A stretch of DNA of 64,000 nucleotides from Bacteroidales bacterium (GTDB lineage Bacteria; Bacteroidota; Bacteroidia; Bacteroidales; P3). Below are positions 3,366 through 64,000 of this stretch, piece after piece. The stretch spans positions 1,847 through 65,846 of the forward strand of contig CAAGNU010000113.1 of assembly GCA_900771365.1 (NCBI GenBank). Direction: 5' to 3'. Positions within the stretch are counted from its first letter, which is position 1, and every line of letters starts with the position of its first letter. Under the pieces are notes generated by a model. The model worked only from the letters and a program-made list of their open reading frames with translations. It ran no database searches and was not told the DNA's origin. The translations under genes were made by a program, and so were the position numbers.

Positions 3366-3402
3366 CACCCGATTTCGAGAGAGAAATCACCACAAACAAA
3401 AT

Positions 3403-3476: not shown

Positions 3477-3480
3477 CAAA

Positions 3481-4030: not shown

Positions 4031-4075
4031 GGGCAAGGCTTTATGCTTCGCTATCGAAGGCCTATAGGACGTTCT

Positions 4076-4792: not shown

Positions 4793-4858
4793 ATTAGTGT
4801 GTAATAAAAACGTGCAAAAATACGATTTTTTTTTGAATTATCGTGTTTTTTTTATCAT

Positions 4859-45700: not shown

Positions 45701-47467
45701 GTGGCTAACCCCAACTACCACTTCGTCAACTGGAACATCAGCTACGGCACTTTGGCTGACACAACATCCATCAACCCCGCAGTCTTCCCTGTTCCCGCAT
45801 TCATGGCTGGCATGAACTTCAGCGTTACCGCCAACTTCGCTCCCGACCAGTTCAACATCGTTGCCGAAGCTAACAACGATGCCATGGGTACCGTCCTCGG
45901 CTCCGGTCTCTACGACTATGGCACCACTGCTACCATCTCTGCTGTTGCAAACCGCAACACCCACTTCGTTCAGTGGAGCGATGGCGACACCAATGCTATC
46001 CGCAACATCCTTGTCACCAGCGATAGCACCTTCACCGCCATCTTCGACTACGACCCCATCACAATCACCCTTGCTACCAACAATAGCGCTATGGGTACCA
46101 CCGCTCCCGTTCCTGGCGTTTACACCTATCTCGTAGACGACACCCTGAGAGCTTCCGCTATTGCCAGCACAGGCCACCTCTTCCAGTTCTGGACCATCAA
46201 CTATGGCACCGGTATCGACATCGACACCCTCGTGTCCAATCCTATGGAGATGGTTCTCCGCAACCACTTAGCCGGCGAGAACATCCTTGTCACCGCTTGC
46301 TTCGTTGCCGAACAGCACACCATCACCGCTGTTCCTAACGATGCCAACATGGGTACCGTTACTGGTGGCGGTGTCTATGGCTACGGTTCTTCCGTAACCC
46401 TGACCGCTACGCCTGCTGACAACGCATACTTCACCAACTGGAGTGACGGAGACACCAACGCTATCCGCAACATCATCGTCACCAATGATGCCGCCTACGT
46501 TGCTATCTTCCATTACAATCCTGTCAACGTTACCCTCGCTGTCAACGATGCCGCTATGGGTACCACCACTCCCGCTCCCGGCATCTATGCCCAGCAGGTC
46601 GGCAACGTTATCAACGCTACCGCTACCGCCAACACTGGCTACCGCTTCACCAGCTGGACCATCACTGGCATGGGCGATACCACCATCAGCAACGTCAATC
46701 CTCTTGACGTGACCATCCTCCCCATAGCTGCTGGCAACGATGTCACCATCACCGCCAACTTCGAGGTTCATCCTCAGCACACCGTCACCCTCACCATCCC
46801 CGAAATCGGTGGCACAGCCACGGGCTCTGGCACCTACTATGAGGGCGAAATGGTCACCATCAACGCTATTGCCGACGACAACTTCATCTTCACAGGTTGG
46901 ACCGACAATAATGGCGCTATCGTCTACACCAACAGCACCAACACCTTCGTTATGGGCACCAGCGATGTTGAGCTCACCGCTAACTTCGAATATCGTGAAG
47001 CAACACTCGACATCACCATCAATAATCCTGCTATGGGTTACATCCTCATCAATGGCGAGGCCACCACTCACTACGAAGGCCATATCAACGACCAAGTCGA
47101 AATCGTTGCTGTTGCTAACGACGGCTACCGCTTCGTAATGTGGAACCTCTCTGCTGACAGCAACAGCACCGAAGGCACCATCACCTACACCCTCGGTCAC
47201 GCCGTTTGCGGTATCAACGCTCTCTTTGCTAAGAACCTCGACATCAACGACGCCAATGTTGACAACACTGTCATCTTCAGTGAAAACAACAACATCATTG
47301 TCCGTGGTGCCGAACAGCAGACCATCCGCGTCTTCGACGTTGTTGGCCGCCTCGTCGAACAGCGCAACAATGCCAACGCTGAAGAGACCATCCCGATGTC
47401 CAACACCGGTATCTACCTCGTCAAAGTTGGTGATGCTGCCGCTCGCCGCGTTGTGGTTCGCCGCTAA
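39800..47467 (+). CDS. giant (2555-aa) T9SS cargo surface protein with multiple Fn3-like and Listeria-Bacteroides (InlB B-type) repeat domains
   Basis: Signal peptide MKAFLRCLMLIAAIAVPWAMSAQ. There are at least six Fn3-like units ending …YNVFVKAVCG. A C-terminal array of alternating about 80-aa modules follows (…NAWMGTTTPxPG…VNWTIS… and …NDAxMGTVxGSGxY…ATPAANCxFVQWSDGDTNATRNIVVTSD…FDY). The terminal about 70 aa (…IRVFDVVGRLVEQRN…GIYLVKVGD…RRVVVRR) has the features of a T9SS type-A CTD. Confidence 0.85.
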   Translation: MKAFLRCLMLIAAIAVPWAMSAQIPTETLIGSESSTTTDKYPVNDYYNYSLSETIIDASEIVDGAQTINSISLYYNYASPMTSKTNCTIYLQHTTKSTFSSSSDIEALSPDAVMVYTGSLNCAQGWNQFDFSNNFSYDGTSNLMVIIDDNSGDYDGSTYVFKTSSCSGYKTLFWYNDNVNPDLSNTSEFSSTQNYYQARCVMKLNGFQGTVSCPRVACISASNVSAYTATVSFTPGGNETAWIGTINPPLFGQSSIVLNDTIVNLMALTPTTDYTVSVSAICGAGDTSMPRSIDFRTTCAPYSIPFTENFDAMASNTTPECWTKVGPGTAAINSSTTYSHSGSMTLKFSGASTPDANIIALPQFSAPINTLELTLWTRPESFTNSSCGQFDVGYMTDLTDASTFVALDTYNYDEFSSVEERNVNFSNAPATAIMALRHRANSNSWYWFVDDIDVHTIPSCPKPATVSASTIDAHSGLVQWTPASSDQTNFVVAYGIGTDPTTMATVNATGTSTIISGLTALTNYNVFVKAVCGADDESLWSRMASFSTALDCGTGYELRDFTIGEGTSSSASYTFYASSTYPFAYNAAIFTAEEIGANNLFENNTINALRLHVGATGGTINNAHIYMANVDLDTYTGASDTTLFAEMEEVYSGNLECGANQWVTIPLTTPFTFDANRNLMVRFTHTSTSTAGVSFFYTNLVSDYRNIYGYRSSTGSTASATKSYNRPNIEFMACTEVPSCFPVQNVTANNVAISSADISWTLNDTTQNNFTIAYGTTNDVATMATATVTNDHVTLYNLTPNTTYYVTVRANCGSEEASIWHRLISFHTLCDIADSAIFFEDFDSYTDNTIPDCWDMGWFYQNPSSGVKTQPYLTSTTQKYGDAGRSMSLQDQGDGTLSYISTQCLPIDRANKYAVSLQVYRGNYSTMKPNEGIKIWASPSADDTTGATLLGYIHRQYTLEPAVEAIGWYQYEFVIPQSGNQYIFIEGISEYGAATYFDNLEVKEVPCIKNVPYYNDFQNAEVNMVPLCWDNSASTSSSLSSSPQYIWGVYNYNGNNMIRMYNYFVESGYATINTNPLILPSDDTCELKFDISHRASCNPAEILISNDNGATYTMLDAIGQTTSSINKDNPGTFVPKTYNLANYAGDTIIIRFNANANYGSGAIFIDNLAVRPTNNCADPTSVTATTTSANSVLVSWTAGDPAQNNFVVAYGTGNNPDDMETVTVSGTSAVISGLTFEQTYNFFVKAVCDESHESYWSHSASAHIGYCTPTPSSVDGQGITHVAFGNGDETVDNSQRPTSAPFYGNYSSQIGAVNASDYANIDITYSTGYTYSTIIWVDWDNSLTFDGDEVVYFGESYSSNPTTLNASFLVPGTQDTGYFRMRIAGSDSYYDNYIGSLASAATADPCPSSSYTIVHDYTLHILPEPTCKKPNNVVASNVTNISADITWSTLDPTENNFVVAYGTGTNPDEMTTTTATTNSATITGLNNGTTYNVFVKAVCSSDDESEWSAMCTFTTDLCSEENQCSITISMADEYGDGWNGGSLVVMDAVSNTAIATFELSDGNEETDSVTICKGRFYSLVWQEGDYDNEVSFVVSDANGQAIYSVIEPSAGLLTTFTGSCPITDSNVYVVYAVNNAWMGTTTPVPGQHTYQVGDMLNATATANAGYSFVNWTISADGVEDITISDNPINTMIPDYMAGMDITCMANFEVETFDVTVLTNDANMGTVSGSGSYNSGATATIVATPAANCRFVQWSDGDTNATRNIVVTSDTTLTATFDYQPVLVTYAINNAWMGSTTPAIGQYTYHVGDTVSATATANAGFRFVNWTISNGIISNTNATNPAEIVIPAAFAGMNITITAIFDNDQFTITALSNNDLLGTVTGSGAYNNGATATLVATPAANCHFVQWNDGDTNATRTVVVTSDSTFTATFDYNPINVVLAINNAWMGTTTPAPGAYTFHVGDTVSAMAVANPNYHFVNWNISYGTLADTTSINPAVFPVPAFMAGMNFSVTANFAPDQFNIVAEANNDAMGTVLGSGLYDYGTTATISAVANRNTHFVQWSDGDTNAIRNILVTSDSTFTAIFDYDPITITLATNNSAMGTTAPVPGVYTYLVDDTLRASAIASTGHLFQFWTINYGTGIDIDTLVSNPMEMVLRNHLAGENILVTACFVAEQHTITAVPNDANMGTVTGGGVYGYGSSVTLTATPADNAYFTNWSDGDTNAIRNIIVTNDAAYVAIFHYNPVNVTLAVNDAAMGTTTPAPGIYAQQVGNVINATATANTGYRFTSWTITGMGDTTISNVNPLDVTILPIAAGNDVTITANFEVHPQHTVTLTIPEIGGTATGSGTYYEGEMVTINAIADDNFIFTGWTDNNGAIVYTNSTNTFVMGTSDVELTANFEYREATLDITINNPAMGYILINGEATTHYEGHINDQVEIVAVANDGYRFVMWNLSADSNSTEGTITYTLGHAVCGINALFAKNLDINDANVDNTVIFSENNNIIVRGAEQQTIRVFDVVGRLVEQRNNANAEETIPMSNTGIYLVKVGDAAARRVVVRR
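44650..46990 (+). repeat. tandem intragenic duplication of about 480-bp two-domain modules (5-6 copies) inside the giant gene
   Basis: Repeated DNA blocks are visible by eye. GGTACCGTCTCTGGCTCTGGC…CAGTGGAGCGATGGCGACACCAACGCTA(T/C)CCGCAACATC… recurs near 44950, 45430, 45890, 46350 and 46810. Confidence 0.6.
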
Positions 47468-54331: not shown

Positions 54332-54355
54332 TGTACAATTGTACAATTGTACAAT
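54332..54355. repeat. (TGTACAAT)x3 perfect tandem repeat abutting the 3' end of the VirE-like gene
   Basis: tgtacaattgtacaattgtacaat lies directly next to the stop of the minus-strand gene at 54356. Confidence 0.5.
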
Positions 54356-56632
54356 TCAAGCGGCAGGCTGTATCTTCCGATAATGGGACGAGCCATACTT
54401 CTGGTTTCTCTCTATGACTCCAAGCTCCACCCACTTATATATAACACGATGTGTAGGAGAGGTCAGATGGTTGTCTATCAATGCCCTCTGCAACTCCTCG
54501 CGGTCGAACTCATCAGGCAGATCGTTATAGGCCGCCGAGCCGAAGAAGTTGACCAAGGATGCCCGTGGCGCGAGCGTCACCCTGCGCAGCAAACCCGCCA
54601 GAGCCATGCTCGCCACCCAGCACCCAAAGGCCTTGACATTCTTGCGGACTGTGCGTGTGTCTTTTTCATCATACAGCACCCATGCCAGCATGGCCGCCCT
54701 CAGGCCATAGGCGGCAGCACGCCTCCTGAATGTGTCACGCGTGATATCGTTGGTCTTCTTGGCATAGAGGCGCTGCGCCTCGTTCCACTTGTCAATCTCA
54801 CTCCCCAGCCAGGCAAGGTCCATGACATACTCGCCCTTCACATCATCGCCGTCCATCGTGTAGCTGTTCAGGTGTTCCAAGGCCGCGTCAATCTCCGCCT
54901 CCTGTGCCGCAGTAAAAGGCTTGAAGGTCTGCAACGGCTTGAAGCTCTGGTCGGGCAAGGTGATGAAGATGGTACGGCTTGTCGTGCCGTCCTCTACCTT
55001 GCCGTCAGTGAAGAAGTTGGCCACGCTGTTAGGCGTTCCGCTCCAGAGAGTGTTGAAAAAAGCATCCACAGAGCCCGAAAACGAGGTGTCGCTGGCATAG
55101 CTTTGACCGTACTTCTCGCCATCGAAAGAGACCTTCAGCAGATTCGAGATGTTGGAGAACGAGCGTTTGAACGAGTCCACGAGGATAGAAATCTCGGGCG
55201 AGTATTGGAACAGGTGCGCCCCTTGGGCATTGTCCAACAACATGAGCAGCTTGGTGATGGAGATGATGGCGGGCGTGATGCGGATGGGGTCGTTGGGCCT
55301 GTTGGCCAAGAGCTCCTTCAGCTCCTGGCGTTCAGCCTTCGTCTTGCCGCCGCCTGCCAGCTTGGTGGCCTTCAGTTCCTCGTCAAAAACCTTCTGCCGC
55401 TGGATGTTCTTCTCGTCCTGCTCAATCACGGGCTTCAGGCACCGCTTCACCAAGTCGGCCAGGAACGACTTCCCCGCGCCTTGGGGAGCCTCCAGCACAC
55501 ACTGAAACGAGGGATGCTCCATCCTTCCGTGGTACGGGGTGCGAATCTTCGAAGCCAGCGTCCCCATGATAGGCAGGAGAGCGAGGACTGTGGCATTCCT
55601 AAAATCCTCCGGCGCTGCCGCGTAAAAATGCGAGAACACCGGCGGCAGCGGAAAATTCACCTCAAAGTTCATCAACTCCACCTCTTCAGCCTCCTGCTGG
55701 GCGGCACAGAGGTCGATGGCATCTTGCAGACGCTCAGAGATGACAGGCTTCGACCTGTAGCGACAAGCGCTACTGCAAACAGCCATCAGCTCGCTGTCCG
55801 ACAAAGTGCAGCCCTCCTTCAAAACATTGAAGATGGCCAGAGGGTTGTAGTCCGTGATGTTGCGGATTTCGGAGGCGATAGCGAAATAGCGGTTGTTTCT
55901 GTCTCCTTCCGAAGGCAGGCCGCCGAAATAGTCCATCATCACCCCCACAATATCGCGCAAAGGGATGCCGTGATAGGCTGTCTGTGTCGATTCCGGCACG
56001 TTTATGGGCGTTGTGGAAGCTGCCGTGGTCGTGTTCGCACAGGGTGCCTGTACCTTTCCGTACCCCTCGCGGATGGGGACAAACCATGCTGGCACCGCCT
56101 CCTCGGGGTCGAAGATGTCGTCCAACTTATAGAAATAGCTGTGCGGCACAAGAAAAGACAGCCGTGCCGGGTCAACGCAATGACTGTCCCAGTACCGCCC
56201 CATGCCGATCTGCTCCACCAGAAAGCGCTGGTTCTGCTCTATCGTGGCCAGCCCCTCGCGCCAGTCCATGACGAGGCGGAGTCCATGCGTGGAGATAGTC
56301 TTGTAAGCCATCCTGATGCCCAAAGCCTCGGCTCGCGGGGCTATGCCTCCCCATACCGCGTCCACCTCCTCATCCAGGTGGTCAAGGTCCACCATGACCA
56401 GAGGATTCAAGATAGCGTTCTCGTTCTTGCGCACACCATCCTTAAAGCTGGCCTGCACCACCATGGCGGGCAGCGACTCCTTGACCCGCTTGCGAGCCTC
56501 CTCGTCCAGCCTCCCTGAGGCGATAGCTGCCGCCTTCTCGGCAATATCTTTCGAGTCGATAAGGGCAAGGAAGCCAGCCTGCAACACAGGCTGACACTTC
56601 CCTCCCATCCTCTTTTGGATGGAAATCTTCAT
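54356..56632 (-). CDS. VirE-N/BT4734-like + DUF3987 P-loop NTPase protein (mobile-element primase-helicase-like)
   Basis: 758 aa. The N-terminal region (MKISIQKRMGGKCQPV…LVMVDLDHLDEE…) resembles the Bacteroides BT4734/VirE N-domain. The central region has a Walker A (LEAPQGAGKSFLADLV) and Walker-B-like acidic residues. The alternative plus-strand ORF (54347-56518) is Arg-rich nonsense. Confidence 0.6.
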   Translation of the reverse strand: MKISIQKRMGGKCQPVLQAGFLALIDSKDIAEKAAAIASGRLDEEARKRVKESLPAMVVQASFKDGVRKNENAILNPLVMVDLDHLDEEVDAVWGGIAPRAEALGIRMAYKTISTHGLRLVMDWREGLATIEQNQRFLVEQIGMGRYWDSHCVDPARLSFLVPHSYFYKLDDIFDPEEAVPAWFVPIREGYGKVQAPCANTTTAASTTPINVPESTQTAYHGIPLRDIVGVMMDYFGGLPSEGDRNNRYFAIASEIRNITDYNPLAIFNVLKEGCTLSDSELMAVCSSACRYRSKPVISERLQDAIDLCAAQQEAEEVELMNFEVNFPLPPVFSHFYAAAPEDFRNATVLALLPIMGTLASKIRTPYHGRMEHPSFQCVLEAPQGAGKSFLADLVKRCLKPVIEQDEKNIQRQKVFDEELKATKLAGGGKTKAERQELKELLANRPNDPIRITPAIISITKLLMLLDNAQGAHLFQYSPEISILVDSFKRSFSNISNLLKVSFDGEKYGQSYASDTSFSGSVDAFFNTLWSGTPNSVANFFTDGKVEDGTTSRTIFITLPDQSFKPLQTFKPFTAAQEAEIDAALEHLNSYTMDGDDVKGEYVMDLAWLGSEIDKWNEAQRLYAKKTNDITRDTFRRRAAAYGLRAAMLAWVLYDEKDTRTVRKNVKAFGCWVASMALAGLLRRVTLAPRASLVNFFGSAAYNDLPDEFDREELQRALIDNHLTSPTHRVIYKWVELGVIERNQKYGSSHYRKIQPAA

Positions 56633-57063
56633 TCTGCCACCTCCTCCTCTTCTTTCTTCGACTTGTCGTAGGCAAAGGTACAGTCCAAGGCCGACTTGAA
56701 CGTCTCCCGCAACATCTTCACACGCTTCTGGTCAACCTCGGGGTCGATAACGAGGGTGAGGACGTAGCGGCCCGACTTGCGGGTGTGCACCTTCATGTCG
56801 CCCACGCAGAAGATACGGTCGTTCTGAGCCCACGGCCTCGGTGGCAGCGGGGTGATGACAAAGGCCGGCTGGCTGCCGCCCAGCAGCTCCGTGACCGAGC
56901 AGGGCGCGTACTCCATCCTGCCCATCACCGGCTTGGGGGCGTGCACCTTCACCTTGGCATTCTCAACGATATGACTCATGCTGTTCTTGCCGCACTTCTC
57001 GCAGCGGTTCTCGACATTATTTTTCTTGGTGTTCATATTATAAAGATTTTTATTATTATACAT
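56629..57063 (-). CDS. hypothetical protein (mobile-element module)
   Basis: 144 aa. The stop overlaps the downstream start (ATGA). It has a CxxC pair near the N-terminus (CEKCGK) and an acidic C-terminus. Confidence 0.45.
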   Translation of the reverse strand: MYNNKNLYNMNTKKNNVENRCEKCGKNSMSHIVENAKVKVHAPKPVMGRMEYAPCSVTELLGGSQPAFVITPLPPRPWAQNDRIFCVGDMKVHTRKSGRYVLTLVIDPEVDQKRVKMLRETFKSALDCTFAYDKSKKEEEEVAE

Positions 57064-57124
57064 TTTTTTATTCTTAGGAATCCCCCTCAGGCCTTACAGC
57101 CCGAGGGGAACTGTCCATGTAGCG

Positions 57125-57457
57125 TTAGCACCTGCCCTTCCCCTTCTCAAAACTCAGATTCGGAGAAATGGCTTCGCTGGGGCGGTAAGTCTCAGGAAGG
57201 GTGAAGAGCGGAGCCTCATAGCCCTCATACATATCCTCCCCCGTGAGGAAGTCATAGATGATAGAAAGCACCACATTCTGGGGCTCGTTAACCTCGCCAT
57301 TGACAATGAAGTCGACAAGGCTCTGGCACAAGATAGCCTGGGCGCAGCCCTTCAGCGGCCAAAGGTTCTTCGCCACGACAGCCTTCTGCTGGTCGTTCAG
57401 CAGCGAAAACAACTGCTGCTGGATGCTGGGCGTTCCGTTCAAATGATAATAAGCCAT
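57125..57457 (-). CDS. hypothetical protein (mobile-element module)
   Basis: 110-aa ORF, co-oriented and tightly spaced with its neighbours. Confidence 0.45.
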   Translation of the reverse strand: MAYYHLNGTPSIQQQLFSLLNDQQKAVVAKNLWPLKGCAQAILCQSLVDFIVNGEVNEPQNVVLSIIYDFLTGEDMYEGYEAPLFTLPETYRPSEAISPNLSFEKGKGRC

Positions 57458-57469
57458 AATACTTTTCTT

Positions 57470-57808
57470 TTAAAGATTAGCGGTTGTAGTGCTCAGCGGC
57501 TCAATATCCACGAGTCGGATGCGGCCATAACGGCGCACCTCGCCACCGTTGTTCGTGGTATTATAGTTGTGCTTGATAGAAAACACACACTCCGTCACCA
57601 CCCCGTTGCGTTCATCACGGGCAAGGCCGTTCACCACAGCGCCCACCCTGTCGACATCATCGCCCGAAGCCCTCACCACAAACCACTCACCCTCGTTGGC
57701 ACCCGTGCCCCTGATCACCATCTCCTGATAACGCCAAGAATTCCCCTCAGCGGTCTCGCCATGCAAAGGCTGACAAATCAGCCACAATCTACCTTGAATC
57801 TTAGTCAT
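57470..57808 (-). CDS. DUF3127-like protein (small OB-fold-like protein typical of Bacteroidota mobile elements)
   Basis: From the internal Met, MTKIQGRLWLICQPLHGETAEGNSWRYQEMVIRGTGANEGEWFVV follows the DUF3127 pattern (K-I-x-G-x…G-x-W-K/R-x-Q-E-x-V-I). Confidence 0.45.
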   Translation of the reverse strand: MTKIQGRLWLICQPLHGETAEGNSWRYQEMVIRGTGANEGEWFVVRASGDDVDRVGAVVNGLARDERNGVVTECVFSIKHNYNTTNNGGEVRRYGRIRLVDIEPLSTTTANL

Positions 57809-57990
57809 TTTACTATTCTCCTTTCTTAAAAAATAATACAATATTATTTAATTTCTTTTTCGACAATCCGACAACTTTATAGGGTCGTCATGCCTCTGTC
57901 CCCGTCCGAATCAGCCTGCGTTTTGGCGCCTTCCCGCAAACTTTCATCCTCCGAAAGACAATGCAAAAGTACACAGAAAATAACAAAAAA

Positions 57991-58016
57991 AGGTCAACGG
58001 TAATCAACGTTGACCT
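57991..58016 (-). terminator. rho-independent terminator downstream of the DUF3883 gene (minus strand)
   Basis: Perfect inverted repeat GGTCAACG-GTAATCAA-CGTTGACC. On the minus strand it is followed by TTTTTTTGTTATTTTC. Confidence 0.6.
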
Positions 58017-58053
58017 CAACCAAAGGAGTTGTATTCTATTTCAAATCAGCAAA

Positions 58054-59523
58054 TCACGAATTTCGAATCAAATCGTCAATTCGCTGCTTCTTTTCTTTGT
58101 CCAAAGTACTCGACTCATTACGTAATTTGGTTTTTGCCTCACAATTAGGCCACAAAGCATCAAACTGCCCCCATTTGACCTTCTGGCCCGGACTGCGCTT
58201 CTCCCAAATCTGCTGAGCCATATACTTCGCCTCGGCCCTTGTCACCCCCTCGGCCAAATGATATTCCGCGTCAAGCAGCCCCGCCTTTCTCAAACTCTCC
58301 CACACCCGCATCCTTGCAGGCCTCTCCCTATCCTCAGGAAAAGCATCCTCAAAAGAAGATAGATTATCCATTTCATTAGTTTTGCATGGTAAGTTTTCCC
58401 TATTTTCATTGGGGAGTACATTAACATTATCTGCACGAATAGTGAGACCTATCTGTGGTGGGGGGTATTGCCTTAACTTTACATCCCAATCGGGATTAAT
58501 TACATTAGCGAATAATGGAACTTTATCCCTTAATGCACAATCATCAATTGGCTCAACAAAATATGAATCGGGGGTTTTGGCCCAGTCTGAAGATTTCGCA
58601 ATTGTCTCTATGGGGTTCTTTATTATTTGAACAACATCATCATAGTCATCACAGTTCAATAAATCAGCATCAACAAGATAAATGAAGTATTTGTCGCCCA
58701 TTACACTTGCCTTCGCTATTTCATTATGAGACCAATGAAAATGAGGTTTCCCCTTATACGTCTTAACCTCAATAAAACGATCGAAATTTTTAGAATCGTT
58801 ATTCTCAAATGAAACAATATCGTAACCAGCCCCAACATCTATTACAGATATACGCTTAATTCTCTTATTGAGAGATGGTTTTGTGATTCTTCTTTTCTCA
58901 TATTCAAGAGCCCAAGTCTCTCCGTCATTACCTAACTCCTTCTTCTTTTGCAGTTGAGCGTATAGTTGTTTTTCCGTTAGTTTCTTTATCTGCTCAGGAT
59001 GAGAAATGTATGAATCTAATTTTTGAAGAATGGTATATCGAGAATCCGTTCGTCTCGCAATCACACCAAATTCGATTAGTATATTGCGAAATCCTGAATT
59101 CTTTGGGGATATACATGTGGGAGACAATAGAAATGTATCTGTGACGAAATCAAAAGTGATGGCATCAACGTTGATAATTTCATTGTCCATGATGAACTCG
59201 ATGAGCCTATCCGTGAACCAATCCAAAAAATCATTGTCATTAAGATGATTTTCTAACAAAATCTTCTCACAAGAAATAACGTCATTACTAATGGATACAA
59301 GTTTCAGTAATTCAAACAAAGACAGGATATACTCTATTTCCCTCTTATTCCTGGATAAGTCATTAGAGACTAATGTGCATATCGTCTGAACATCTTTTGT
59401 CCCATTTATCAATAAATTAGCGACATTGGCAACTCCACGTGGGTCACCTATTCTGCATGACTTGCCAAGCAGAACAATCTTGTCAGAAGATTGCTGACTT
59501 TGACTTTCTCTTGACATAATCAA
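58054..59523 (-). CDS. DUF3883 (NO VEIN-C / restriction-endonuclease-fold) domain protein
   Basis: 489 aa. The central block …GETWALEYEKRRI…ISVIDVGAGYDIVSFENNDSKNFDRFIEVKTYKGKPHFHWSHNEIAKASVMGDKYFIYLV has the DUF3883 / PD-(D/E)xK-like signature (E…D…EVK). The start overlaps the SNF2 gene by 41 nt. Confidence 0.65.
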   Translation of the reverse strand: MIMSRESQSQQSSDKIVLLGKSCRIGDPRGVANVANLLINGTKDVQTICTLVSNDLSRNKREIEYILSLFELLKLVSISNDVISCEKILLENHLNDNDFLDWFTDRLIEFIMDNEIINVDAITFDFVTDTFLLSPTCISPKNSGFRNILIEFGVIARRTDSRYTILQKLDSYISHPEQIKKLTEKQLYAQLQKKKELGNDGETWALEYEKRRITKPSLNKRIKRISVIDVGAGYDIVSFENNDSKNFDRFIEVKTYKGKPHFHWSHNEIAKASVMGDKYFIYLVDADLLNCDDYDDVVQIIKNPIETIAKSSDWAKTPDSYFVEPIDDCALRDKVPLFANVINPDWDVKLRQYPPPQIGLTIRADNVNVLPNENRENLPCKTNEMDNLSSFEDAFPEDRERPARMRVWESLRKAGLLDAEYHLAEGVTRAEAKYMAQQIWEKRSPGQKVKWGQFDALWPNCEAKTKLRNESSTLDKEKKQRIDDLIRNS

Positions 59524-61459
59524 TTAGAATTGCTTTTATATCGTTATCATCACCATTCTCAATAAACGCATTATTGAACAAAGGAATGGGGACATTATCG
59601 ATAATATCTAACATCCTTCGCTCTTTATCACGCAAACGAGTGTCAATTGTTTCATCAACAGAATCTTTCGCGAGAATGTAATAATAATTAGTTGTTATAT
59701 CTTGACCCAATCCATATCGATGAATACGGTCTTTTGATTGAATGAAATGAGCACAGTTAAACGAACGCTCTAAATATATTGCATTATGGCAAGCCTTGTG
59801 TAAAGAAATGGATTCAGCAACAGCAAATGGATTTGCTACAATAACTTTATAAGGACAATCTGGCTCATGAAACTCTTTTACTATGGCTTCCCTCGTCTCG
59901 GAGTACTCCTCTGGTGTCATCTTATCTGAGGCCACAGGTGTGCCGCCATATAAAGGCCGACTATCAATCCCCTGTTGCTGGAAATAGTTGACAAGGCGCT
60001 TGATATTCTCTATAAATATAGCCCAAACAATGACTTTTTCCCCTTTGGCGATTATCTCTTTTACAAGGCGGCAGCATTCCTCATATTTTGCAGGAACATT
60101 TTCATCATAAAAATGCATAATATCATTCATGATATTCGCATCTTCTGTTTCTACTGATGACAGATCCGCGCCAAACTGCTCAGAGAACTGTGATAGGGGG
60201 ACTTTCAATAATGCGGGGTTTGTAGCGACTTGCTGCAAACGAATCATCTTTGCTTTGAGCAATTCTGAACGAAATAAACTTGTAGAGTTCTCTCGTCTAA
60301 CTTCTTCAACGAACCTATCTTCGATGTAATCATATATGCGTCTTTGACTATCTTTCATGTCCACCATGATGGGTAGGTTGTCTATGACTGGAGGAAGATG
60401 AAGGTCCTTCTTGCGGATTCTTATAAAATACGGACTCACATTGTTTATCATCTTCTCAATACGACTGTCCCCTAAGGTTCTTGTCATATCTTTCAGTTGG
60501 CCGACATTATACTTTATGACATCATGTTGAGGCCAGATAAACCGAAAAAGATTGTAAATATCCTCGTACCCATTGGGTGCGGGAGTACCCGTTAGAACAA
60601 CACGAGAGCGACAATATTTCGCCAGTTCCATGATAGCAGTTGCCTGCACCCCGCCATTGACATTCTTAATCTTATGGGCTTCATCCAAAATGACCATAAC
60701 GTGGTTGTTGCGCAAAAAGTACGCCAACTCGTCTTTGATGTTCGCTAAGGTCTGATAACTCATCAGATTCAGTTCAGCCGTATCTTCCTGATAAAAATAC
60801 GATTCTCTTTCATTTGGAGCCATGCCAGCTCCAATACGGCGACTTACAGCTTTTCTACCAAAGCATTCTTCGTACTCATTTTCCCATGGCGCAAATGAAC
60901 TGAGAGGTCCCACTATCAGCAATTTATCAACATGTCGTTTATCAGATACATCTCTGCTTTTTAAATAGGTATATGCCCCATATACAATACTTGTCTTGCC
61001 TGCACCTGGAACAGAGAAATTACAAGCATTTTGAGAGAATGCTAAATGATAGGCCGATAGCAACTGTAAAGCATAAAGTCGGCGTTTGGGCATACCTTCA
61101 ATAAGTGTATTTGAGAAGGACTCGAAATCTTTTGCATCACAGTGATCGTTCTTAATGTCTAACGCTTTGACTGAAAATTCTGCAAAGCGTTCTTCTTCAT
61201 CCTTAAATTGGGCAATCTCAGCACTGGCCTTTGCGTCATATTCAACCTCTGCATCTATATATCCAGCTACTACTTTCAGAATACGTGCAATATTCTCAAT
61301 GGTTTTATCGGATTCTATTTCTATTGTGTCACCCTTAACCGTAAAAGGCAATTGATTTCTCATCATCAATTGCGCTCTCTTGTTCTTCAAAAGAGCTTGA
61401 ACACAACCGCCAATAATATACCTGTTTTCATCAGATGATGAAATCGTAAGAGTTTCCAT
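59483..61459 (-). CDS. SNF2/RAD54-family helicase
   Basis: 658 aa. Motif I is FSVPGAGKTSIVYGA, motif II is ILDEAHKIKN (DEAH) and motif III is LTGTPAPNGYEDIYNLFRFI. The helicase-C motifs are HFIQSKDRIHRYGLGQD. Confidence 0.85.
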   Translation of the reverse strand: METLTISSSDENRYIIGGCVQALLKNKRAQLMMRNQLPFTVKGDTIEIESDKTIENIARILKVVAGYIDAEVEYDAKASAEIAQFKDEEERFAEFSVKALDIKNDHCDAKDFESFSNTLIEGMPKRRLYALQLLSAYHLAFSQNACNFSVPGAGKTSIVYGAYTYLKSRDVSDKRHVDKLLIVGPLSSFAPWENEYEECFGRKAVSRRIGAGMAPNERESYFYQEDTAELNLMSYQTLANIKDELAYFLRNNHVMVILDEAHKIKNVNGGVQATAIMELAKYCRSRVVLTGTPAPNGYEDIYNLFRFIWPQHDVIKYNVGQLKDMTRTLGDSRIEKMINNVSPYFIRIRKKDLHLPPVIDNLPIMVDMKDSQRRIYDYIEDRFVEEVRRENSTSLFRSELLKAKMIRLQQVATNPALLKVPLSQFSEQFGADLSSVETEDANIMNDIMHFYDENVPAKYEECCRLVKEIIAKGEKVIVWAIFIENIKRLVNYFQQQGIDSRPLYGGTPVASDKMTPEEYSETREAIVKEFHEPDCPYKVIVANPFAVAESISLHKACHNAIYLERSFNCAHFIQSKDRIHRYGLGQDITTNYYYILAKDSVDETIDTRLRDKERRMLDIIDNVPIPLFNNAFIENGDDNDIKAILIDYVKRKSKSAIF

Positions 61460-61464
61460 CTTGA

Positions 61465-62769
61465 TTATTCGCTAATGTGCGTTTCAATCTTTTTTAATAT
61501 ATTTTTGATGTCATTCAAATAACCCTTTACTTCGGCTAAATTCGGTATCGAAGAAAGAGTGCATATATCAACCTCTTTTAAGGCATTTGCCGCTTTTTTT
61601 ATCAACATACCTGGCTTATCTCTTTCTTTCTTATTTTCCAACACGTTTGAGGCATTGGAGAAAGCTTCTTTCATTTTCTCTTTCACCGCACCACGCCACT
61701 TATTATCGCGAGCATCCAAAAGTCGTTTTGAGTCAGTCTGATTGTGTGACTTTGAAAGCACTTCGTCAATAGTTTCTTCTTCAATACCGTTTGTTGCGTT
61801 CCCCCAGTCTTCAATAAACTGTTTCCATATAGATTCGTTCAAAAGGAAATTATTGCTGGACGTTGATGCTATCGCACGGAAATCAAAATCATCATCGCCC
61901 TTCATGTTCAAACGGATATAGTCAAAACATACACTCTTTAAATCGTTCAGAACGGCCTCTTGGCAACCTTCTTGAATCCATCCGATATCCCCTTTGTATA
62001 TTTTTTTACATGCAGTGTTTAGTTTCAACAAATCATCCTCAACACCTCTCTGTAGTCTTGTGTAAATTCCTTCACAATCACACCACCCCAAATAATCATC
62101 AATCAGCCCCATCACTTCTAACATGATATCAACTTCACTGGGTTTCCCACATCCCATGTATTCTGCTATTTCATGGACGGAAAAACCTCGATCCTTCATA
62201 TCCCTTGCATGAAGATACTTCTCTATAGGATTGTATCCGACCTTCTCATCTGCCCCCATTTGAAATGATGTCTCAAGACGTAAGATTTCTTTTTCGTCAG
62301 CATCTTCTGGCAAAACAACTGCACGAAAATATTCACACCTGGCTTTTTCGTCAGGGGATGATTTATCATCATGAGAAATAGCCCACATCAAAGAAAATCG
62401 ACGGTTACCATCAACCAAGATACCATCACTTGTAATAATTCCTGGCTCTAATTGCCCATTCTTTGCTATATTATCTTTTGTATAATCATTTGCCTTATCA
62501 TGTGCCTCATAGAGAAACTGAGACAATATTTTCGCATCGCCAGGATTTTCTGGATGCAATGGCCCATGTTCTTTTTCATATGACTTAACCAAACTTGCGA
62601 CTCGTCCATTTTCTACATTCAAGACAAGATAATCCATGGGGATATTATAGACCTTAAATTCCTCTGTCTTGCCACGATATAAAAGAAGTTTCCCTGTTCC
62701 TTGCTGTGAAACAAAAGATTCTCCCTTTGTAATCTGAAAAATAGCCTGTTTTCTTTCGTCCTTAGTCAT
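61465..62769 (-). CDS. ParB/Srx-superfamily (ParB-nuclease / DndB- or DUF262-like) protein
   Basis: 434 aa. The N-terminal region …VYNIPMDYLVLNVENGR…QLEPGIITSDGILVDGNRRFSLMWAI matches the ParB N-domain pattern (…pld.l.pnp.n.R…G..l..G.RR..A). The C-terminal 250 aa are of unknown family. Confidence 0.55.
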   Translation of the reverse strand: MTKDERKQAIFQITKGESFVSQQGTGKLLLYRGKTEEFKVYNIPMDYLVLNVENGRVASLVKSYEKEHGPLHPENPGDAKILSQFLYEAHDKANDYTKDNIAKNGQLEPGIITSDGILVDGNRRFSLMWAISHDDKSSPDEKARCEYFRAVVLPEDADEKEILRLETSFQMGADEKVGYNPIEKYLHARDMKDRGFSVHEIAEYMGCGKPSEVDIMLEVMGLIDDYLGWCDCEGIYTRLQRGVEDDLLKLNTACKKIYKGDIGWIQEGCQEAVLNDLKSVCFDYIRLNMKGDDDFDFRAIASTSSNNFLLNESIWKQFIEDWGNATNGIEEETIDEVLSKSHNQTDSKRLLDARDNKWRGAVKEKMKEAFSNASNVLENKKERDKPGMLIKKAANALKEVDICTLSSIPNLAEVKGYLNDIKNILKKIETHISE

Positions 62770-62773
62770 AGCA

Positions 62774-63664
62774 TCATATATTTAAAAAGTCTTTTACTAC
62801 TTGTTCTACTATGTCAACATTTTGCAAATTTGCAAAATAGTGACAATCATTATATATTTTTTTATAGTCAGTAGATCTTGCAACCCAACCTGCACCATCA
62901 AGCATATTGATTAATACAATATCTTCTCGTTCCCGTATGTTTCTATATATACCGCTGATTTTTTTTGCAATTTTTGTTTGCCCCGGGCCCGTAGTCAATA
63001 AATAACTATTCTGGATAACAATGTACTTAGTACCATCCGTAATATAGCACGAGTCTTCATTTATGCCGTTGACACGTCCTTCTTCTACTGAAAAACCCAA
63101 TGGGGCAATTCTGGCTTCTATATCTCTTTTCAGCCTATTTTGGTAGGCTGTGGCGTATGGGGCTGTGTATGAGGTTTCTTGCTTCTTCTTGAAAAGTTTT
63201 GTCAAAGTGTCATTATTGGTAATTCGGTCTATCGTGCTATTATCAATGCAAAAATCATCAAGAATATATTGCGGTATTTGGCGTTTGTATAAATCTGAGT
63301 TCTTACCATTAAAAAACAAATCGCAGAACTCATCCATAAGTGCATTATTTTCGGTAAGTTTTTTTTGGAGTTTTTTCTCATTCCATTCCGTATCGAAAAT
63401 GAAACCTTTTCTTACGCGAATCATGGTGGTGATTCTTTTCATTTTCTCGCCACTAATGCCTAAAACTGTTTCGAGCATCTCTATAGAATCATTGTTGCTT
63501 TTAATGAAAGACTGCAAGCCTTCCAGTGTACCAATGCCCACCATGGCTTGTTGATACCTTAAAACCTCCTTTGCGATTAAATCGTTAAAATCTTTTTCGA
63601 TGGTCTCGTCAATCAAAAACATCGTTGTGCTTTTTATAGCATCTTTTTGACTTATTTTAATCAT
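62774..63664 (-). CDS. hypothetical protein; possible restriction-endonuclease partner of the adjacent C5-methyltransferase
   Basis: About 296 aa from ATG 63664 (the track uses GTG 63670). The start is embedded in the MTase stop (ATGATTAA overlap). No family motif was recognised by eye. Confidence 0.4.
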   Translation of the reverse strand: MIKISQKDAIKSTTMFLIDETIEKDFNDLIAKEVLRYQQAMVGIGTLEGLQSFIKSNNDSIEMLETVLGISGEKMKRITTMIRVRKGFIFDTEWNEKKLQKKLTENNALMDEFCDLFFNGKNSDLYKRQIPQYILDDFCIDNSTIDRITNNDTLTKLFKKKQETSYTAPYATAYQNRLKRDIEARIAPLGFSVEEGRVNGINEDSCYITDGTKYIVIQNSYLLTTGPGQTKIAKKISGIYRNIREREDIVLINMLDGAGWVARSTDYKKIYNDCHYFANLQNVDIVEQVVKDFLNI

Positions 63665-64000
63665 TCGCACCTCCTTTCGGGTAAATACAATCTAACAATC
63701 TGCTGGCAATGGCCTTAATAACAGGAACGCAAACAGAGTTCCCAATCAAGTCATAGCCTTCTTTTATTTTCTTGGGTGACTCAAAATCTTCTAATGAATA
63801 GTCCTCTGGGTAGCCGAAGAACCTTAGTCCCTCACGCAAAGTCAAATGGCGGATTCCGTTTCCGTCAACTACGCCATTTGTACTCATATCCATAGCCACA
63901 AGCGTATTGCATGGAACTTCGGGATTTAGAATCTTGCTTATTTCAAATGATAGTTTTCCTGTGACAATATTGTATCCTTTCGGTTTTGTTTCGTCAGGGA
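63657..64000 (-). CDS. DNA (cytosine-5)-methyltransferase, C-terminal part (gene continues beyond the right edge)
   Basis: The frame is open to 64000. The end …RHLTLREGLRFFGYPEDY…IGNSVCVPVIKAIASRL matches C5-MTase motifs IX-X (RxLTpRExaRLqGFPDd…GNaV.vpv). The track ORF begins at an internal GTG only because the true start lies outside the window. Confidence 0.75.
   Translation of the reverse strand, partial: PDETKPKGYNIVTGKLSFEISKILNPEVPCNTLVAMDMSTNGVVDGNGIRHLTLREGLRFFGYPEDYSLEDFESPKKIKEGYDLIGNSVCVPVIKAIASRLLDCIYPKGGAND

What the first reader, a model, noticed from the sequence alone, without database searches (positions are those of the whole stretch)
58054..64000. Low-GC five-gene operon (C5-MTase, small partner, ParB/Srx-like, SNF2 helicase, DUF3883 nuclease-fold): candidate uncharacterised defence system
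Five co-oriented minus-strand genes are packed tightly. The MTase stop and next start share ATGATTAA, gaps of 4 and 5 nt follow, and the SNF2 and DUF3883 genes overlap by 41 nt. A strong terminator hairpin at 57991-58016 closes the unit. Each product has a defence-type domain. These are a C5 cytosine methyltransferase (motifs IX-X visible), a ParB/Srx-fold protein (DGNRR motif), an SNF2 helicase with a complete DEAH core, and a DUF3883 PD-(D/E)xK-like protein. GC is about 37% in a sampled 60-nt stretch, against about 55-57% in typA and pckA, which points to horizontal acquisition. I cannot match this gene order and content to a named system from memory. DISARM, Dnd/Dpd, Ssp, BREX and type I-III R-M share single components but not the combination. 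A methylation-gated helicase-nuclease restriction system with a ParB-like sensor or regulator is a plausible reading.
Basis: partly seen in the sequence, partly recalled or inferred. Interest (0 to 1): 0.85.

Follow-up and report, generated by a model that had tools for sequence, protein, structure and literature searches.

The report
ParB–helicase–nuclease restriction-modification cassette
This is a real five-gene operon, conserved in the same order across several bacterial phyla on mobile elements, that joins a cytosine methylase and a restriction-enzyme-like protein to an uncharacterised ParB-like protein, an SNF2 motor and a nuclease; it looks like an unnamed restriction-type defence system, but nobody has tested what it does.

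Summary
Five co-oriented minus-strand genes at 58054-64000 form one low-GC operon (35-41% against 51% elsewhere) and end in a strong terminator. The "ParB/Srx-like" gene is confirmed by structure as a ParB N-domain plus HTH. It belongs to a large family (1,636 clusters at 50% identity) with no Pfam, PADLOC or NCBIfam model.

The cassette order MTase, REase-like, ParB-like, SNF2, NOV_C recurs in 27 of 32 species-representative genomes and in about 62 of 80 metagenome loci, including 12 with the MTase moved downstream. Hosts are mainly Bacteroidota and Bacillota, with single MAG loci from other phyla. The identities of the five proteins co-vary (r 0.86-0.97).

Distant variants keep ParB-like plus SNF2 plus a nuclease, usually with a C5 methylase. 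The REase family changes (Sau3AI/MutH, BglII) or is absent, and NOV_C is replaced by a fused PLD nuclease.

No named system matched. Best reading: a methylation-gated, motor-driven restriction system with a ParB-like NTP switch. The function is untested. I rate it a new variant of a known kind, interest about 0.66.

The parts
63657..64000 (-). 3' end (last 114 codons) of a 455-aa C5 cytosine DNA methyltransferase. The gene continues beyond the window to about 65024.
   Evidence: PF00145 E 4.7e-11 and TIGR00675. The full gene is L001:251-1618 on the identical contig. GFPCQ, ENV, QxRxR and GN motifs are at least 97% conserved in 88 orthologues. The N-terminal half resembles M.HhaI, E 8e-37.
62774..63664 (-). 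g4: 296-aa Type II restriction-endonuclease-fold protein, a distant member of the DpnII/BanI clan. Its start codon overlaps the MTase stop (ATGATTAA).
61465..62769 (-). g3: 434-aa ParB/Srx-fold protein (N-terminal NTP-binding-type domain, HTH, helical C-terminal domain). It belongs to a large family without a profile model.
59483..61459 (-). g2: 658-aa SNF2-family ATPase/translocase.
   Evidence: PF00176 E 4e-24 and PF00271. PDB hits are Snf2, Sth1, ISWI and Rad54. PGAGKT (151-156), DEAH (259-262) and QSKDRIHRYG (574-583) are at least 97% conserved in 97 orthologues. Only partial matches to ZorD, DpdE and DrmD.
58054..59523 (-). g1: 489-aa NOV_C/DUF3883 PD-(D/E)xK nuclease-domain protein. It overlaps g2 by 41 nt and has a C-terminal extension absent from the roughly 311-aa Bacillota orthologues.
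   Evidence: PF13020 E 1.1e-13 at residues 202-284. D235 and E252-V-K254 are at least 97% conserved in 94 orthologues. It is fused to the SNF2 gene in L067 (914 aa).
57990..58017 (-). Intrinsic-terminator-like hairpin that closes the operon.
   Evidence: 10-bp stem, 5 GC pairs, 8-nt loop, then TTTTTTTGTTAT.

Best explanation
The five genes form one methylation-gated, NTP-driven restriction system carried as cargo by mobile elements.

PROPOSED MECHANISM.
- The C5 methyltransferase marks a fixed host sequence as self.
- On unmethylated incoming DNA, the Type II REase-fold protein (g4) recognises that site and probably cuts or nicks it.
- The ParB-like protein (g3) is an NTP-gated DNA-binding switch or clamp with an HTH. 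It engages the DNA and licenses the SNF2 translocase (g2).
- The SNF2 motor works with the DUF3883/NOV_C nuclease (g1) as a split helicase-nuclease that cleaves or degrades the invader away from the recognition site.

SHOWN HERE: operon structure, folds and families, conserved catalytic motifs, strict co-inheritance, and modular variants.

INFERRED:
- the defence function itself;
- which protein reads methylation;
- that g4 is catalytically active;
- NTP binding by g3;
- physical coupling of g3, g2 and g1.

In an equally admissible sub-version, g3 works on the modification side as a loader or regulator of the methylase, as DpdB and DndB are proposed to do in their systems.
For: 1. ONE OPERON. 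Overlapping or 4-5 nt junctions, a single terminator, and a Bacteroidetes-type TAnnTTTG box upstream of the MTase on the same contig.

2. FIXED GENE ORDER.
- 27 of 32 species-representative genome loci have the order MT-REl-ParBl-SNF2-NOVC. They span Bacteroidales, Flavobacteriia and Clostridia, with single MAG loci labelled Opitutia and Alphaproteobacteria.
- 49 of 80 metagenome loci have the same order.
- A further 12 keep the four downstream genes but have the MTase moved to the far end on the opposite strand. This form also occurs in Streptococcus equi.
- Most of the remainder are cut by contig ends.

3. CO-INHERITANCE. Identities of the five proteins to the window copies co-vary across 75 loci, r = 0.86-0.97.

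4. MODULAR VARIANTS KEEP THE LOGIC.
- Four-gene forms lack the REase: Planococcus and Fictibacillus (L042, L043), L133, and marine L135/L136.
- A BglII-family REase fills the same slot in L134.
- Sau3AI/MutH-family REases accompany a PLD nuclease fused to the SNF2 gene on Priestia and Lactiplantibacillus plasmids.
- SNF2 and NOV_C are fused in L067.
- One protein (P0229) joins an MTase C-terminus to ParBl.

5. ACTIVE SITES CONSERVED in the MTase, SNF2 and NOV_C proteins.

6. ParB MOTIFS. The g3 fold is ParB-N plus HTH. The motifs NxxNGR, DGNRR and LETxxQ are invariant and sit where ParB boxes I-III lie. The box assignment is my own reading.

7. LITERATURE SUPPORT FOR THE PARTS.
- The ParB-CTPase fold binds CTP, ATP or GTP in diverse proteins (PMC12704722).
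- DUF3883 is a proven endonuclease domain in YenY4I (PMC6765204) and HmaA (PMC11232893).

8. MOBILE AND DEFENCE-ISLAND CONTEXT.
- DUF3987 primase island next to typA in the window.
- Integrase islands in L002-L006.
- A Tn916-like ICE in L011.
- Plasmids, and 22 IMG/VR contigs.
- Neighbouring AspBHI-like/McrB-like genes, NERD, and a PIN-helicase.

Against: - There is no functional data of any kind.
- g4 lacks a recognisable D..ExK triad. Its conserved residues are E73, E93, T224-T225, Q229, GAGW257-260, R263 and D266. It may therefore recognise DNA without cutting.
- A common Bacteroidales lineage (L002-L005, L017 and others) has an in-frame stop just upstream of MTase motif I and no canonical start codon after it. 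The downstream genes stay intact. This is awkward for a strict 'methylase protects against lethal restriction' model unless a non-canonical start is used.
- Enterococcus faecalis plasmids (52 records) and an Exiguobacterium plasmid carry ParBl-SNF2 with no methylase nearby. The ParBl-SNF2 pair can therefore exist outside an R-M frame.
- The MTase, including its target-recognition region, is the most conserved of the five proteins. Classical R-M families diversify their specificity, so this is unusual.
Confidence: 0.55

Rival explanations
1. Two independent systems happen to travel together. One is an ordinary Type II R-M pair (C5 MTase plus DpnII/BanI-like REase). The other is a separate three-gene ParB-like/SNF2/NOV_C system with its own methylation-independent trigger, for example abortive infection or sensing of replication intermediates.
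For: - g4 relatives exist as plain MTase-REase pairs (L014).
- ParBl-SNF2 occurs without any methylase on E. faecalis and Exiguobacterium plasmids.
- Defence systems commonly cluster.
- Solitary SNF2-DUF3883 (HmaA) can defend by itself (PMC11232893).
Against: - Separate systems would be expected to shuffle. Here the five proteins co-vary at r 0.86-0.97 over 75 loci, and no locus in this clade shows a foreign R-M pair.
- When the REase is lost, the methylase stays glued to ParBl-SNF2-NOVC (L042, L043, L133, L135). An orphan methylase is pointless next to a methylation-blind system.
- When the methylase moves, it stays within the cassette (12 loci).
- Three unrelated REase families occupy the same slot beside ParBl.
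- One protein (P0229) joins an MTase C-terminus to ParBl.
Confidence: 0.17
2. The cassette serves the mobile element rather than the host. It may act as an addiction or stabilisation module, or as an establishment or anti-restriction function. In that reading the ParB-like HTH protein acts as a KorB-like silencer or partition factor, and the methylase pre-protects the transferred DNA.
For: - It always sits on mobile elements: IMEs, a Tn916-like ICE, conjugative or mobilisable plasmids, and prophage-like contigs.
- g3 resembles KorB and ParB in structure, including the HTH.
- PGAP names some relatives 'ParB/RepB/Spo0J family partition protein'.
- ParB, methylase and SNF2 domains are known to be combined in polyvalent proteins of plasmids and phages (PMC5512222 appeared in search; I did not read it in detail).
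Against: - No ParA partner is adjacent in the cassette loci.
- Conserved active nuclease motifs and a REase-fold gene are hard to explain for partition or silencing.
- In L007-L010 an integrase was not seen within the fetched flanks, and the flanks include housekeeping genes.
- R-M systems are themselves addiction modules, so this rival partly collapses into the best explanation.
Confidence: 0.12
3. The ParB-like/SNF2/NOV_C module is a modification-dependent (Type IV-like) nuclease that attacks foreign modified DNA. The resident m5C methylase would then be unrelated to self-protection.
For: - DUF3883 is the catalytic domain of the modified-cytosine-dependent enzyme YenY4I. DUF3427-DUF3883 genes sit next to C5 methylases and Sau3AI/MutH-like genes (PMC6765204).
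- ParB-like DUF262 domains drive Type IV enzymes such as GmrSD (PMC12839542).
- In L043 a Type IV pair lies directly downstream.
Against: - No modification-reading domain (SRA, PUA, DUF3427, SBD) was detected in any of the five proteins.
- A Type IV enzyme permanently welded to an m5C methylase would risk self-attack.
- The near-universal linkage to a C5 methylase argues for protection, not coincidence.
Confidence: 0.05

Closest known systems
Classical Type II restriction-modification (C5 MTase plus a Type IIP PD-(D/E)xK-fold REase such as BsoBI or BstEII; Pfam DpnII / RE_BanI clan)
   Same: The first two genes form an MTase/REase-fold pair with overlapping stop and start codons. A Vsr gene lies next to some copies (L007-L010, L131). 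A relative of g4 occurs as a plain two-gene pair (L014).
   Different: The pair is never found alone in this clade. It is always followed by ParB-like, SNF2 and nuclease genes. The REase can be absent while the methylase stays. No catalytic triad is evident in g4. The methylase target-recognition region is unusually conserved.
Hma / Type-1 BREX-related system (HmaA is an SNF2 helicase fused to a DUF3883 nuclease; PMC11232893, PMC12839542, PMC3710099)
   Same: An SNF2 motor is combined with a DUF3883/NOV_C PD-(D/E)xK nuclease in a methylase-linked operon. Here the two are split, with a 41-nt overlap, and they are actually fused in L067.
   Different: Hma uses a DUF1156 N6-adenine methylase and a DUF499 ATPase. 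Neither is present here. Hma has no ParB-like protein and no Type II REase. No HmaA model appeared among the hits listed for g2; 25 of 28 were shown.
MANTIS (Gao_RL) MtsD and PbeA of PbeABCD / CxC-ABC systems (PLD nuclease fused to an SF2 helicase; bioRxiv 10.64898/2026.09.23.753747, PMC6459918, PMC10853773)
   Same: Same concept: a methylation or modification mark plus a recognition module that triggers a motor-nuclease effector. The distant plasmid variants of this family carry a PLD-SNF2 fusion whose PLD part matches PbeA models at E 5e-67.
   Different: The window copy has NOV_C, not PLD. There is no AAA+ MtsA, MtsB or N6 MTase, and no CxC ABC ATPase or DndE partner. The ParB-like protein is unique to this family.
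GmrSD / BrxU / SspE (DUF262 ParB-like NTPase coupled to a DUF1524 HNH nuclease), and DndB and DpdB (ParB-fold proteins of the Dnd and Dpd modification systems)
   Same: A ParB/Srx-fold domain with a DGxxR-type motif is used in a DNA-targeting immune system as an NTP-dependent switch or as a regulator of modification.
   Different: g3 is not detected by any existing ParB, DUF262, DndB or DpdB profile. It carries an HTH and a long helical tail instead of a fused nuclease. Its partners are SNF2 plus a PD-(D/E)xK nuclease. The mark is m5C, not phosphorothioate or 7-deazaguanine.
ParB / KorB / Noc CTP-dependent DNA clamps
   Different: There is no ParA partner and no known parS. The C-terminal domain differs. 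The genomic context is restriction genes rather than segregation genes.
CglI / NgoAVII ATP-dependent Type II systems (C5 MTase, R protein, SF2 'N' protein). Recalled from memory, not tested here.
   Same: A C5 methylase with a sequence-recognising nuclease subunit that needs a separate SF2 ATPase for cleavage. This is the nearest mechanistic precedent for 'Type II recognition plus motor'.
   Different: The R protein there is a PLD plus B3-like domain protein. There is no ParB-like or DUF3883 component. That system has three genes, not five.

Membership tests
Type II R-M | C5 DNA methyltransferase with catalytic motifs I, IV (PCQ), VI (ENV), VIII and X | tested here: met
   PF00145 and TIGR00675 hits. 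The full gene on L001 starts MPKKTDEVRFVDLFAGLGG. GFPCQ, ENV, QxRxR and GN are at least 97% conserved.
Type II R-M | Cognate restriction endonuclease (fold and family) | tested here: met
Type II R-M | Identifiable nuclease catalytic residues, and site-specific cleavage blocked by the cognate methylation | tested here: inconclusive
   No D..ExK triad sits in the beta-sheet core. The conserved residues are E73, E93, TT224-225, Q229, GAGW, R263 and D266. Cleavage itself cannot be tested in silico.
Type II R-M | Two-gene autonomy (MTase plus REase suffice and occur alone) | tested here: not met
   Every locus of this clade with enough flanking sequence carries ParBl-SNF2-NOVC after the pair, apart from two decayed or chimeric loci.
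Hma / Type-1 BREX-related | SNF2 helicase with a DUF3883 nuclease | tested here: met
   Adjacent overlapping genes g2 and g1. They are fused in L067.
Hma / Type-1 BREX-related | DUF1156 N6-adenine methylase (HmaB) and DUF499 ATPase (HmaC) | tested here: not met
   No such domains in the operon or in its relatives. The methylase is C5.
DISARM | DrmA (helicase) plus DrmB (DUF1998) core, with DrmC (PLD) or DrmD | tested here: not met
   Only partial DrmD and DrmMII profile matches, far below the NCBIfam cut-offs (42.8 bits against 610). There is no DUF1998 gene.
Dpd (7-deazaguanine) system | DpdA (TGT) with DpdB and DpdC, plus the DpdD-K restriction genes | tested here: not met
   g3 does not hit DpdB models. 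g2 hits DpdE only partially (18 bits against a 500-bit cut-off). No TGT-like gene is present.
PbeABCD / CxC-ABC systems | PLD-SF2 PbeA together with the CxC ABC ATPase PbeC and the DndE-like PbeD | tested here: not met
   The window g2 has no PLD domain. Only the distant plasmid variants match the PbeA N-terminus. No ABC ATPase lies in any locus examined.
GmrSD / BrxU / SspE | DUF262 (DGQQR) NTPase fused to a DUF1524 HNH nuclease | tested here: not met
   No DUF262 or DUF1524 hits for g3. The fold is ParB-like but the architecture is ParB-N, HTH and a helical domain.
ParABS partition | ParB N-domain plus HTH fold | tested here: met
ParABS partition | Adjacent ParA ATPase and a segregation context | tested here: not met
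   No ParA gene flanks the cassette in L001-L013.
ParB-CTPase switches | NTP binding and hydrolysis, and clamp closure | not testable with these tools
   The only evidence is motif conservation at box I-III-like positions.
MANTIS / Gao_RL | MtsA AAA+ ATPase, MtsB, MtsC N6 MTase, and MtsD PLD-SF2 | tested here: not met
   No Gao_RL models appear among the PADLOC hits listed (best 25 per protein) for any of the five proteins.

The most novel reading that the evidence does not exclude
This would be a new class of epigenetic immune system. A ParB-fold, NTP-gated DNA clamp reads the methylation state of a fixed DNA motif, or of a break made there by an exchangeable Type II endonuclease. The clamp then loads a chromatin-remodeller-type SNF2 motor with a dedicated nuclease onto foreign DNA. 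It would be the first case of a ParB/KorB-like sliding switch acting as the licensing step of restriction. It would also define a family of about 1,600 protein clusters that currently has no profile model.
Probability: 0.3. Interest if true: 0.85.

Novelty: new variant of a known kind. Interest (0 to 1): 0.66.

Why it matters
If it is functional, this is a widespread and so far unnamed barrier to phage and plasmid entry in gut Bacteroidales, Lachnospiraceae, streptococci and lactobacilli, and it is carried by the mobile elements that move between them.

It would add a third kind of NTPase, a ParB-fold switch, to the methylation-based defences that couple recognition to a motor-nuclease (Type I/III, DISARM, BREX-related, MANTIS).

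It would also give a function to a large orphan ParB-like family.

The natural variants (REase swapped or absent, nuclease swapped or fused, methylase relocated) already amount to a genetic dissection. They make the question 'which component reads methylation?' directly testable.

On the practical side, the system could explain poor transformability of some gut strains, and it would define one more m5C motif in methylome data.

Tried and rejected

A REase HIDDEN IN THE LONG BACILLALES METHYLASES. I tested whether the C-terminal extension of these 534-557 aa proteins is a fused g4. hhalign against the g4 profile gave probabilities below 1%, so I rejected this.

PROFILE SEARCH OF g4 AGAINST PDB SEQUENCES. 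It returned only chance hits such as PUM-HD.

g1 AGAINST PDB SEQUENCES. No hits.

afdb50 FOLD LIBRARY. It was unavailable.

NAMED SYSTEMS CONSIDERED AND REJECTED (see the membership table): DISARM, Dpd, Hma/BR, MANTIS/Gao_RL, PbeABCD, ARMADA II (read in PMC13463889), GmrSD-type, Zorya ZorD, Tiamat, PD-T4-1 and PDC-S36. For the last three, only the nuclease domain matches.

LITERATURE. Searches on DUF3883, SNF2, ParB, methyltransferase and defence terms found no description of this gene set. Neither the PNAS 2025 survey of the ParB-CTPase fold nor the 2025 EcoSal R-M review mentions it.

SIMPLE FRAMESHIFT OR HOMOPOLYMER PHASE VARIATION. I considered this as the explanation for the short MTase calls in L002-L005. 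The DNA alignment shows no indel, only a stop codon upstream of motif I. The point remains unexplained.

SOURCE NAMES. Exact-cluster look-up returned no names except 'hypothetical protein'.

Full report
OBSERVATION.

The region contains five co-oriented minus-strand ORFs:
- g1 58054-59523 (489 aa)
- g2 59483-61459 (658 aa)
- g3 61465-62769 (434 aa)
- g4 62774-63664 (296 aa)
- g5 from 63657 to beyond the window end

ATGATTAA contains the g4 start codon and the methylase TAA stop. The next two gaps are 4 nt and 5 nt. g2 and g1 overlap by 41 nt.

A hairpin with a 10-bp stem followed by a T-run lies at 58017-57990.

GC content is 0.35-0.41 for the five genes, against 0.51 for the rest of the window and 0.55-0.59 around typA.

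The same sequence is on a 67-kb metagenome contig (L001). That contig supplies the full 455-aa methylase. It also shows a Bacteroidetes-type TAnnTTTG box about 70 nt upstream of the methylase ATG. The contig ends only 250 bp upstream of the methylase.

The host is a Bacteroidota member. The evidence is a T9SS sorting domain, a BT4734-like/DUF3987 primase gene and that promoter motif. The cassette sits next to a DUF3987 primase-type island inserted beside typA.

WHAT EACH GENE IS.

g5 is a C5 cytosine methyltransferase (PF00145, TIGR00675). Its N-terminal half is closest to M.HhaI among solved structures.

g2 is a bona fide SNF2-family ATPase (PF00176 at E 4e-24; Snf2, Sth1, ISWI and Rad54 in the PDB). 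Its matches to ZorD, DpdE and DrmD are only partial and lie far below the curated cut-offs.

g1 carries a NOV_C/DUF3883 PD-(D/E)xK domain at residues 202-284.

- 22 of 25 homologues hit the Pfam DpnII model and 15 hit RE_BanI, with weak E-values (best 7e-6).
- Foldseek is weaker but also puts BsoBI first.
- A 29%-identical relative is paired with an N6/N4 methylase and is followed directly by an unrelated gene on the opposite strand, like a classical two-gene R-M pair (L014). That contig is only 3.8 kb.
- I could not find a canonical D..ExK triad. The residues conserved in 95 orthologues are E73, R77, R83, E93, W94, T224, T225, Q229, G257-A-G-W260, R263 and D266. Whether g4 cuts, nicks or only recognises DNA stays open.

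g3 has no hit in Pfam, PADLOC or NCBIfam:
- The architecture is therefore ParB/Srx N-domain, HTH and a helical C-terminal region.
- Across relatives only 23-39% identical, the invariant residues are N51, N54, R56, N94, Q106, N122-R123-R124, E166, Q170, Y185 and Y226.
- I read NxxNGR, DGNRR and LETxxQ as the counterparts of ParB boxes I, II (GERR) and III (ENLQR), which form the nucleotide pocket. That assignment is my own inference.
- The family is large: 1,636 clusters at 50% identity with E<1e-3, of which 197 have E<1e-30.

IS THE FIVE-GENE UNIT REAL?

Yes. I called ORFs in all fetched loci and classified them with phmmer and HMMs built from the window proteins.

Species-representative genomes (32 loci):
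- 27 have MT-REl-ParBl-SNF2-NOVC in that order.
- They include Bacteroidales, Segatella bryantii, Flavobacterium, Leeuwenhoekiella, Lachnospiraceae, Agathobacter and other Clostridia. Single MAG loci are labelled Opitutia and Alphaproteobacteria.
- Two have a four-gene form.
- Three are cut by contig ends or decayed.

Metagenome loci (80):
- 49 have the canonical order.
- 12 keep REl-ParBl-SNF2-NOVC but carry the methylase convergently at the far end. Streptococcus equi 'phage Javan191' has this same form.
- Nearly all the rest are truncated by contig ends.
- Two loci (L096, L031) lack the distal genes and look decayed or chimeric.

Across 75 complete loci, the identities of the five proteins to the window copies co-vary with r = 0.86-0.97. 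Mean identities are MTase 58%, SNF2 55%, ParBl 46%, REl 35% and NOVC 36%. The genes are therefore inherited as a block.

Catalytic motifs conserved in at least 97% of orthologues:
- SNF2: PGAGKT, DEAH, QSKDRIHRYG
- NOV_C: D235, E252-x-K254
- MTase: GFPCQ, ENV, QxRxR, GN

VARIANTS THAT DISSECT THE SYSTEM.

More distant members of the g3 family keep a core and swap the periphery.

No REase:
- Planococcus and Fictibacillus: C5 MTase-ParBl-SNF2-NOVC. The extra C-terminal 200 aa of that methylase is not a hidden g4.
- L133: MTase-ParBl-SNF2-NOVC.
- Marine L135/L136: a divergent MTase next to ParBl-SNF2-NOVC.

A different REase family in the same slot:
- L134: MTase, BglII-family endonuclease, ParBl, SNF2.

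A different nuclease:
- Priestia megaterium and Lactiplantibacillus plantarum plasmids: divergent dcm, then ParBl, then a PLD-SNF2 fusion of 851-862 aa, then a Sau3AI/MutH-family endonuclease. The Lactiplantibacillus copy also has Vsr.
- The PLD part matches PADLOC PbeA models at E 5e-67.

Fusions:
- L067 fuses SNF2 and NOV_C into one 914-aa protein.
- One metagenomic protein (P0229) joins a methylase C-terminus to ParBl.

No methylase seen:
- Enterococcus faecalis plasmids (52 records) carry an 864-aa sigma-HTH protein, ParBl and a 620-aa SNF2, followed by IS elements.
- An Exiguobacterium plasmid has ParBl and PLD-SNF2.

The invariant pair is therefore ParB-like plus SNF2. A nuclease (NOV_C or PLD) and a C5 methylase accompany it in most forms. 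A Type II REase from any of three unrelated families is an optional, exchangeable module.

HOW IT MOST LIKELY WORKS.

The best-supported reading is a single methylation-gated restriction system:
- The methylase marks self.
- The REase-fold protein recognises the unmethylated site and probably cuts or nicks it.
- The ParB-like protein acts as an NTP-gated DNA-binding switch or clamp.
- The SNF2 motor with the DUF3883 nuclease is a split helicase-nuclease effector that destroys the DNA.

The strongest argument that the core itself senses methylation comes from the REase-less forms. In them the methylase stays welded to ParBl-SNF2-NOVC. An orphan methylase would serve no purpose beside a methylation-blind module.

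The parts have precedents:
- DUF3883 is a proven endonuclease in YenY4I and HmaA (PMC6765204, PMC11232893).
- ParB-CTPase folds bind CTP, ATP or GTP in many contexts (PMC12704722).
- ParB-like domains drive or regulate GmrSD/BrxU, DndB and DpdB (PMC12839542, PMC10853773).
- Recognition-triggered motor-nucleases are now documented for MANTIS (bioRxiv 10.64898/2026.09.23.753747).

An equally allowed sub-model puts g3 on the modification side, as a loader or regulator of the methylase, by analogy with DpdB, DndB and MtsA/B. The adjacency of MTase and ParBl and their fusion fit that reading.

Everything beyond folds, motifs and linkage is inference.

POINTS AGAINST, AND OPEN PROBLEMS.

- No phenotype exists.
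- The catalytic residues of g4 are unclear.
- A widespread Bacteroidales lineage (L002-L005, L017, L027 and others) has an in-frame TGA eight codons before methylase motif I, with no canonical start codon after it. The downstream genes are intact, and no indel explains the stop. Either an unusual start codon is used or the simple 'lethal without methylase' logic is wrong.
- Some ParBl-SNF2 pairs have no methylase nearby.
- The methylase, including the region between motifs VIII and IX, is the most conserved protein. This suggests one fixed target sequence rather than the diversification typical of R-M families.

COMPARISON WITH KNOWN SYSTEMS.

It works like an R-M system with a motor-nuclease. 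It is not a member of any named family that I could test.

- Type II R-M: the methylase and REase fold are met, but two-gene autonomy is not met and catalysis is unresolved.
- Hma / Type-1 BREX-related: SNF2 plus DUF3883 is met, but the DUF1156 methylase and DUF499 ATPase are absent.
- DISARM, Dpd, PbeABCD, MANTIS/Gao_RL, ARMADA II, GmrSD-type and Zorya: defining components are absent.
- CglI/NgoAVII (from memory) is the nearest mechanistic precedent for 'C5 methylase plus site-recognising nuclease plus separate SF2 ATPase', but its proteins are different.

Six full-text searches and two recent surveys gave no description of this gene set.

The libraries I could use are incomplete. PADLOC-DB dates from 2023, there was no DefenseFinder or REBASE, and subscription papers are missing. 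A prior computational mention therefore cannot be excluded.

VERDICT.

The finding is a conserved, widely distributed and apparently unnamed R-M-like cassette built around a new ParB-fold family. I rate it a new variant of a known kind, with interest 0.66.

The most novel reading has a ParB-like clamp as the methylation-reading licensing step for an SNF2-nuclease. I give it about 0.3 probability, and it would deserve about 0.85 interest if true.

Noticed in passing
L002:7600-8300, also L003-L005, L017, L027, L053, L061 (related loci): In a common Bacteroidales lineage of the cassette, an in-frame TGA lies 8 codons upstream of methylase motif I (DLFSGLGG). No ATG, GTG or TTG follows before the motif. 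A mini-ORF ATGAAATAG sits there in another frame. L006 has CGT AGA in place of the stop. No indel is involved. Either a non-canonical start is used or the methylase is inactive beside intact restriction genes.
   Followed up: partly
L001:174-181 (about window coordinate 65094-65101, outside the window): TATCTTTG matches the Bacteroidetes -7 promoter consensus TAnnTTTG, about 70 nt upstream of the methylase ATG. The 67-kb contig ends only 250 bp upstream of the methylase, so the far boundary of the island is unknown.
   Followed up: partly
window 54356-57841 (- strand): A DUF3987/BT4734-like primase-type gene (758 aa) and three small ORFs without Pfam hits lie between typA and the cassette. Their GC is 54-59%, against 37% for the cassette. 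The defence genes therefore have a different origin from the element that carries them. The long antisense ORF 54347-56518(+) is a GC-rich artefact.
   Followed up: partly
window 58054-58600 (3' third of g1): The C-terminal 170 aa or so of the NOV_C protein has higher GC (0.45 against 0.35) and no counterpart in the 307-325-aa Bacillota and Flavobacteriia orthologues. Bacteroidales copies vary from 399 to 493 aa. The tail is variable and of unknown function.
   Followed up: no
window 39800-47467 (+): A 2,555-aa predicted T9SS-secreted surface protein. It has 10 divergent InlB B-repeats, fn3 domains, a GEVED domain and a Por_Secre_tail/DUF6383 C-terminus. It lies in a stretch with strongly negative GC skew (-0.2 to -0.39).
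   Followed up: no
L128 (E. faecalis plasmid NZ_CP098027.1, 5372-11047 of the locus); 52 plasmid records: A distant relative of the ParB-like/SNF2 pair is preceded by an 864-aa protein with a sigma-70 region-4 HTH. No methylase or nuclease was detected, and IS elements follow. It may be a different system built on the same pair, or a truncated one.
   Followed up: partly
L043:13564-17938 (Fictibacillus enclensis): Directly downstream of the four-gene variant lie an AspBHI-like SRA-Mrr protein and a 1,005-aa AAA_5 (McrB-like) protein. That is a modification-dependent restriction pair sitting next to an m5C-writing system.
   Followed up: no
L002-L005:16000-21299: Downstream of the cassette in the integrase/DUF3987 island lie a resolvase, a NERD-Zn-ribbon protein, a 788-aa AAA_11/AAA_12 helicase with a PIN domain, and a gene of more than 2,100 aa. 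This looks like a defence island on an integrative element inserted next to mnmE.
   Followed up: no
L137-L158 (IMG/VR viral contigs): 22 viral-labelled contigs carry the cassette. In most it lies within 1-3 kb of a contig end, which suggests prophage-end cargo or mis-set prophage borders. One example is Streptococcus 'phage Javan191', positions 1-6607.
   Followed up: partly
L096:3039-8860 and L031:1701-10665: These are the two exceptions to the conserved order. In L096, MT-REl-ParBl is followed by unrelated genes. In L031, ParBl is cut at residue 245 and followed by GC-rich DNA full of overlapping ORFs. They are decayed copies or chimeric assemblies.
   Followed up: partly
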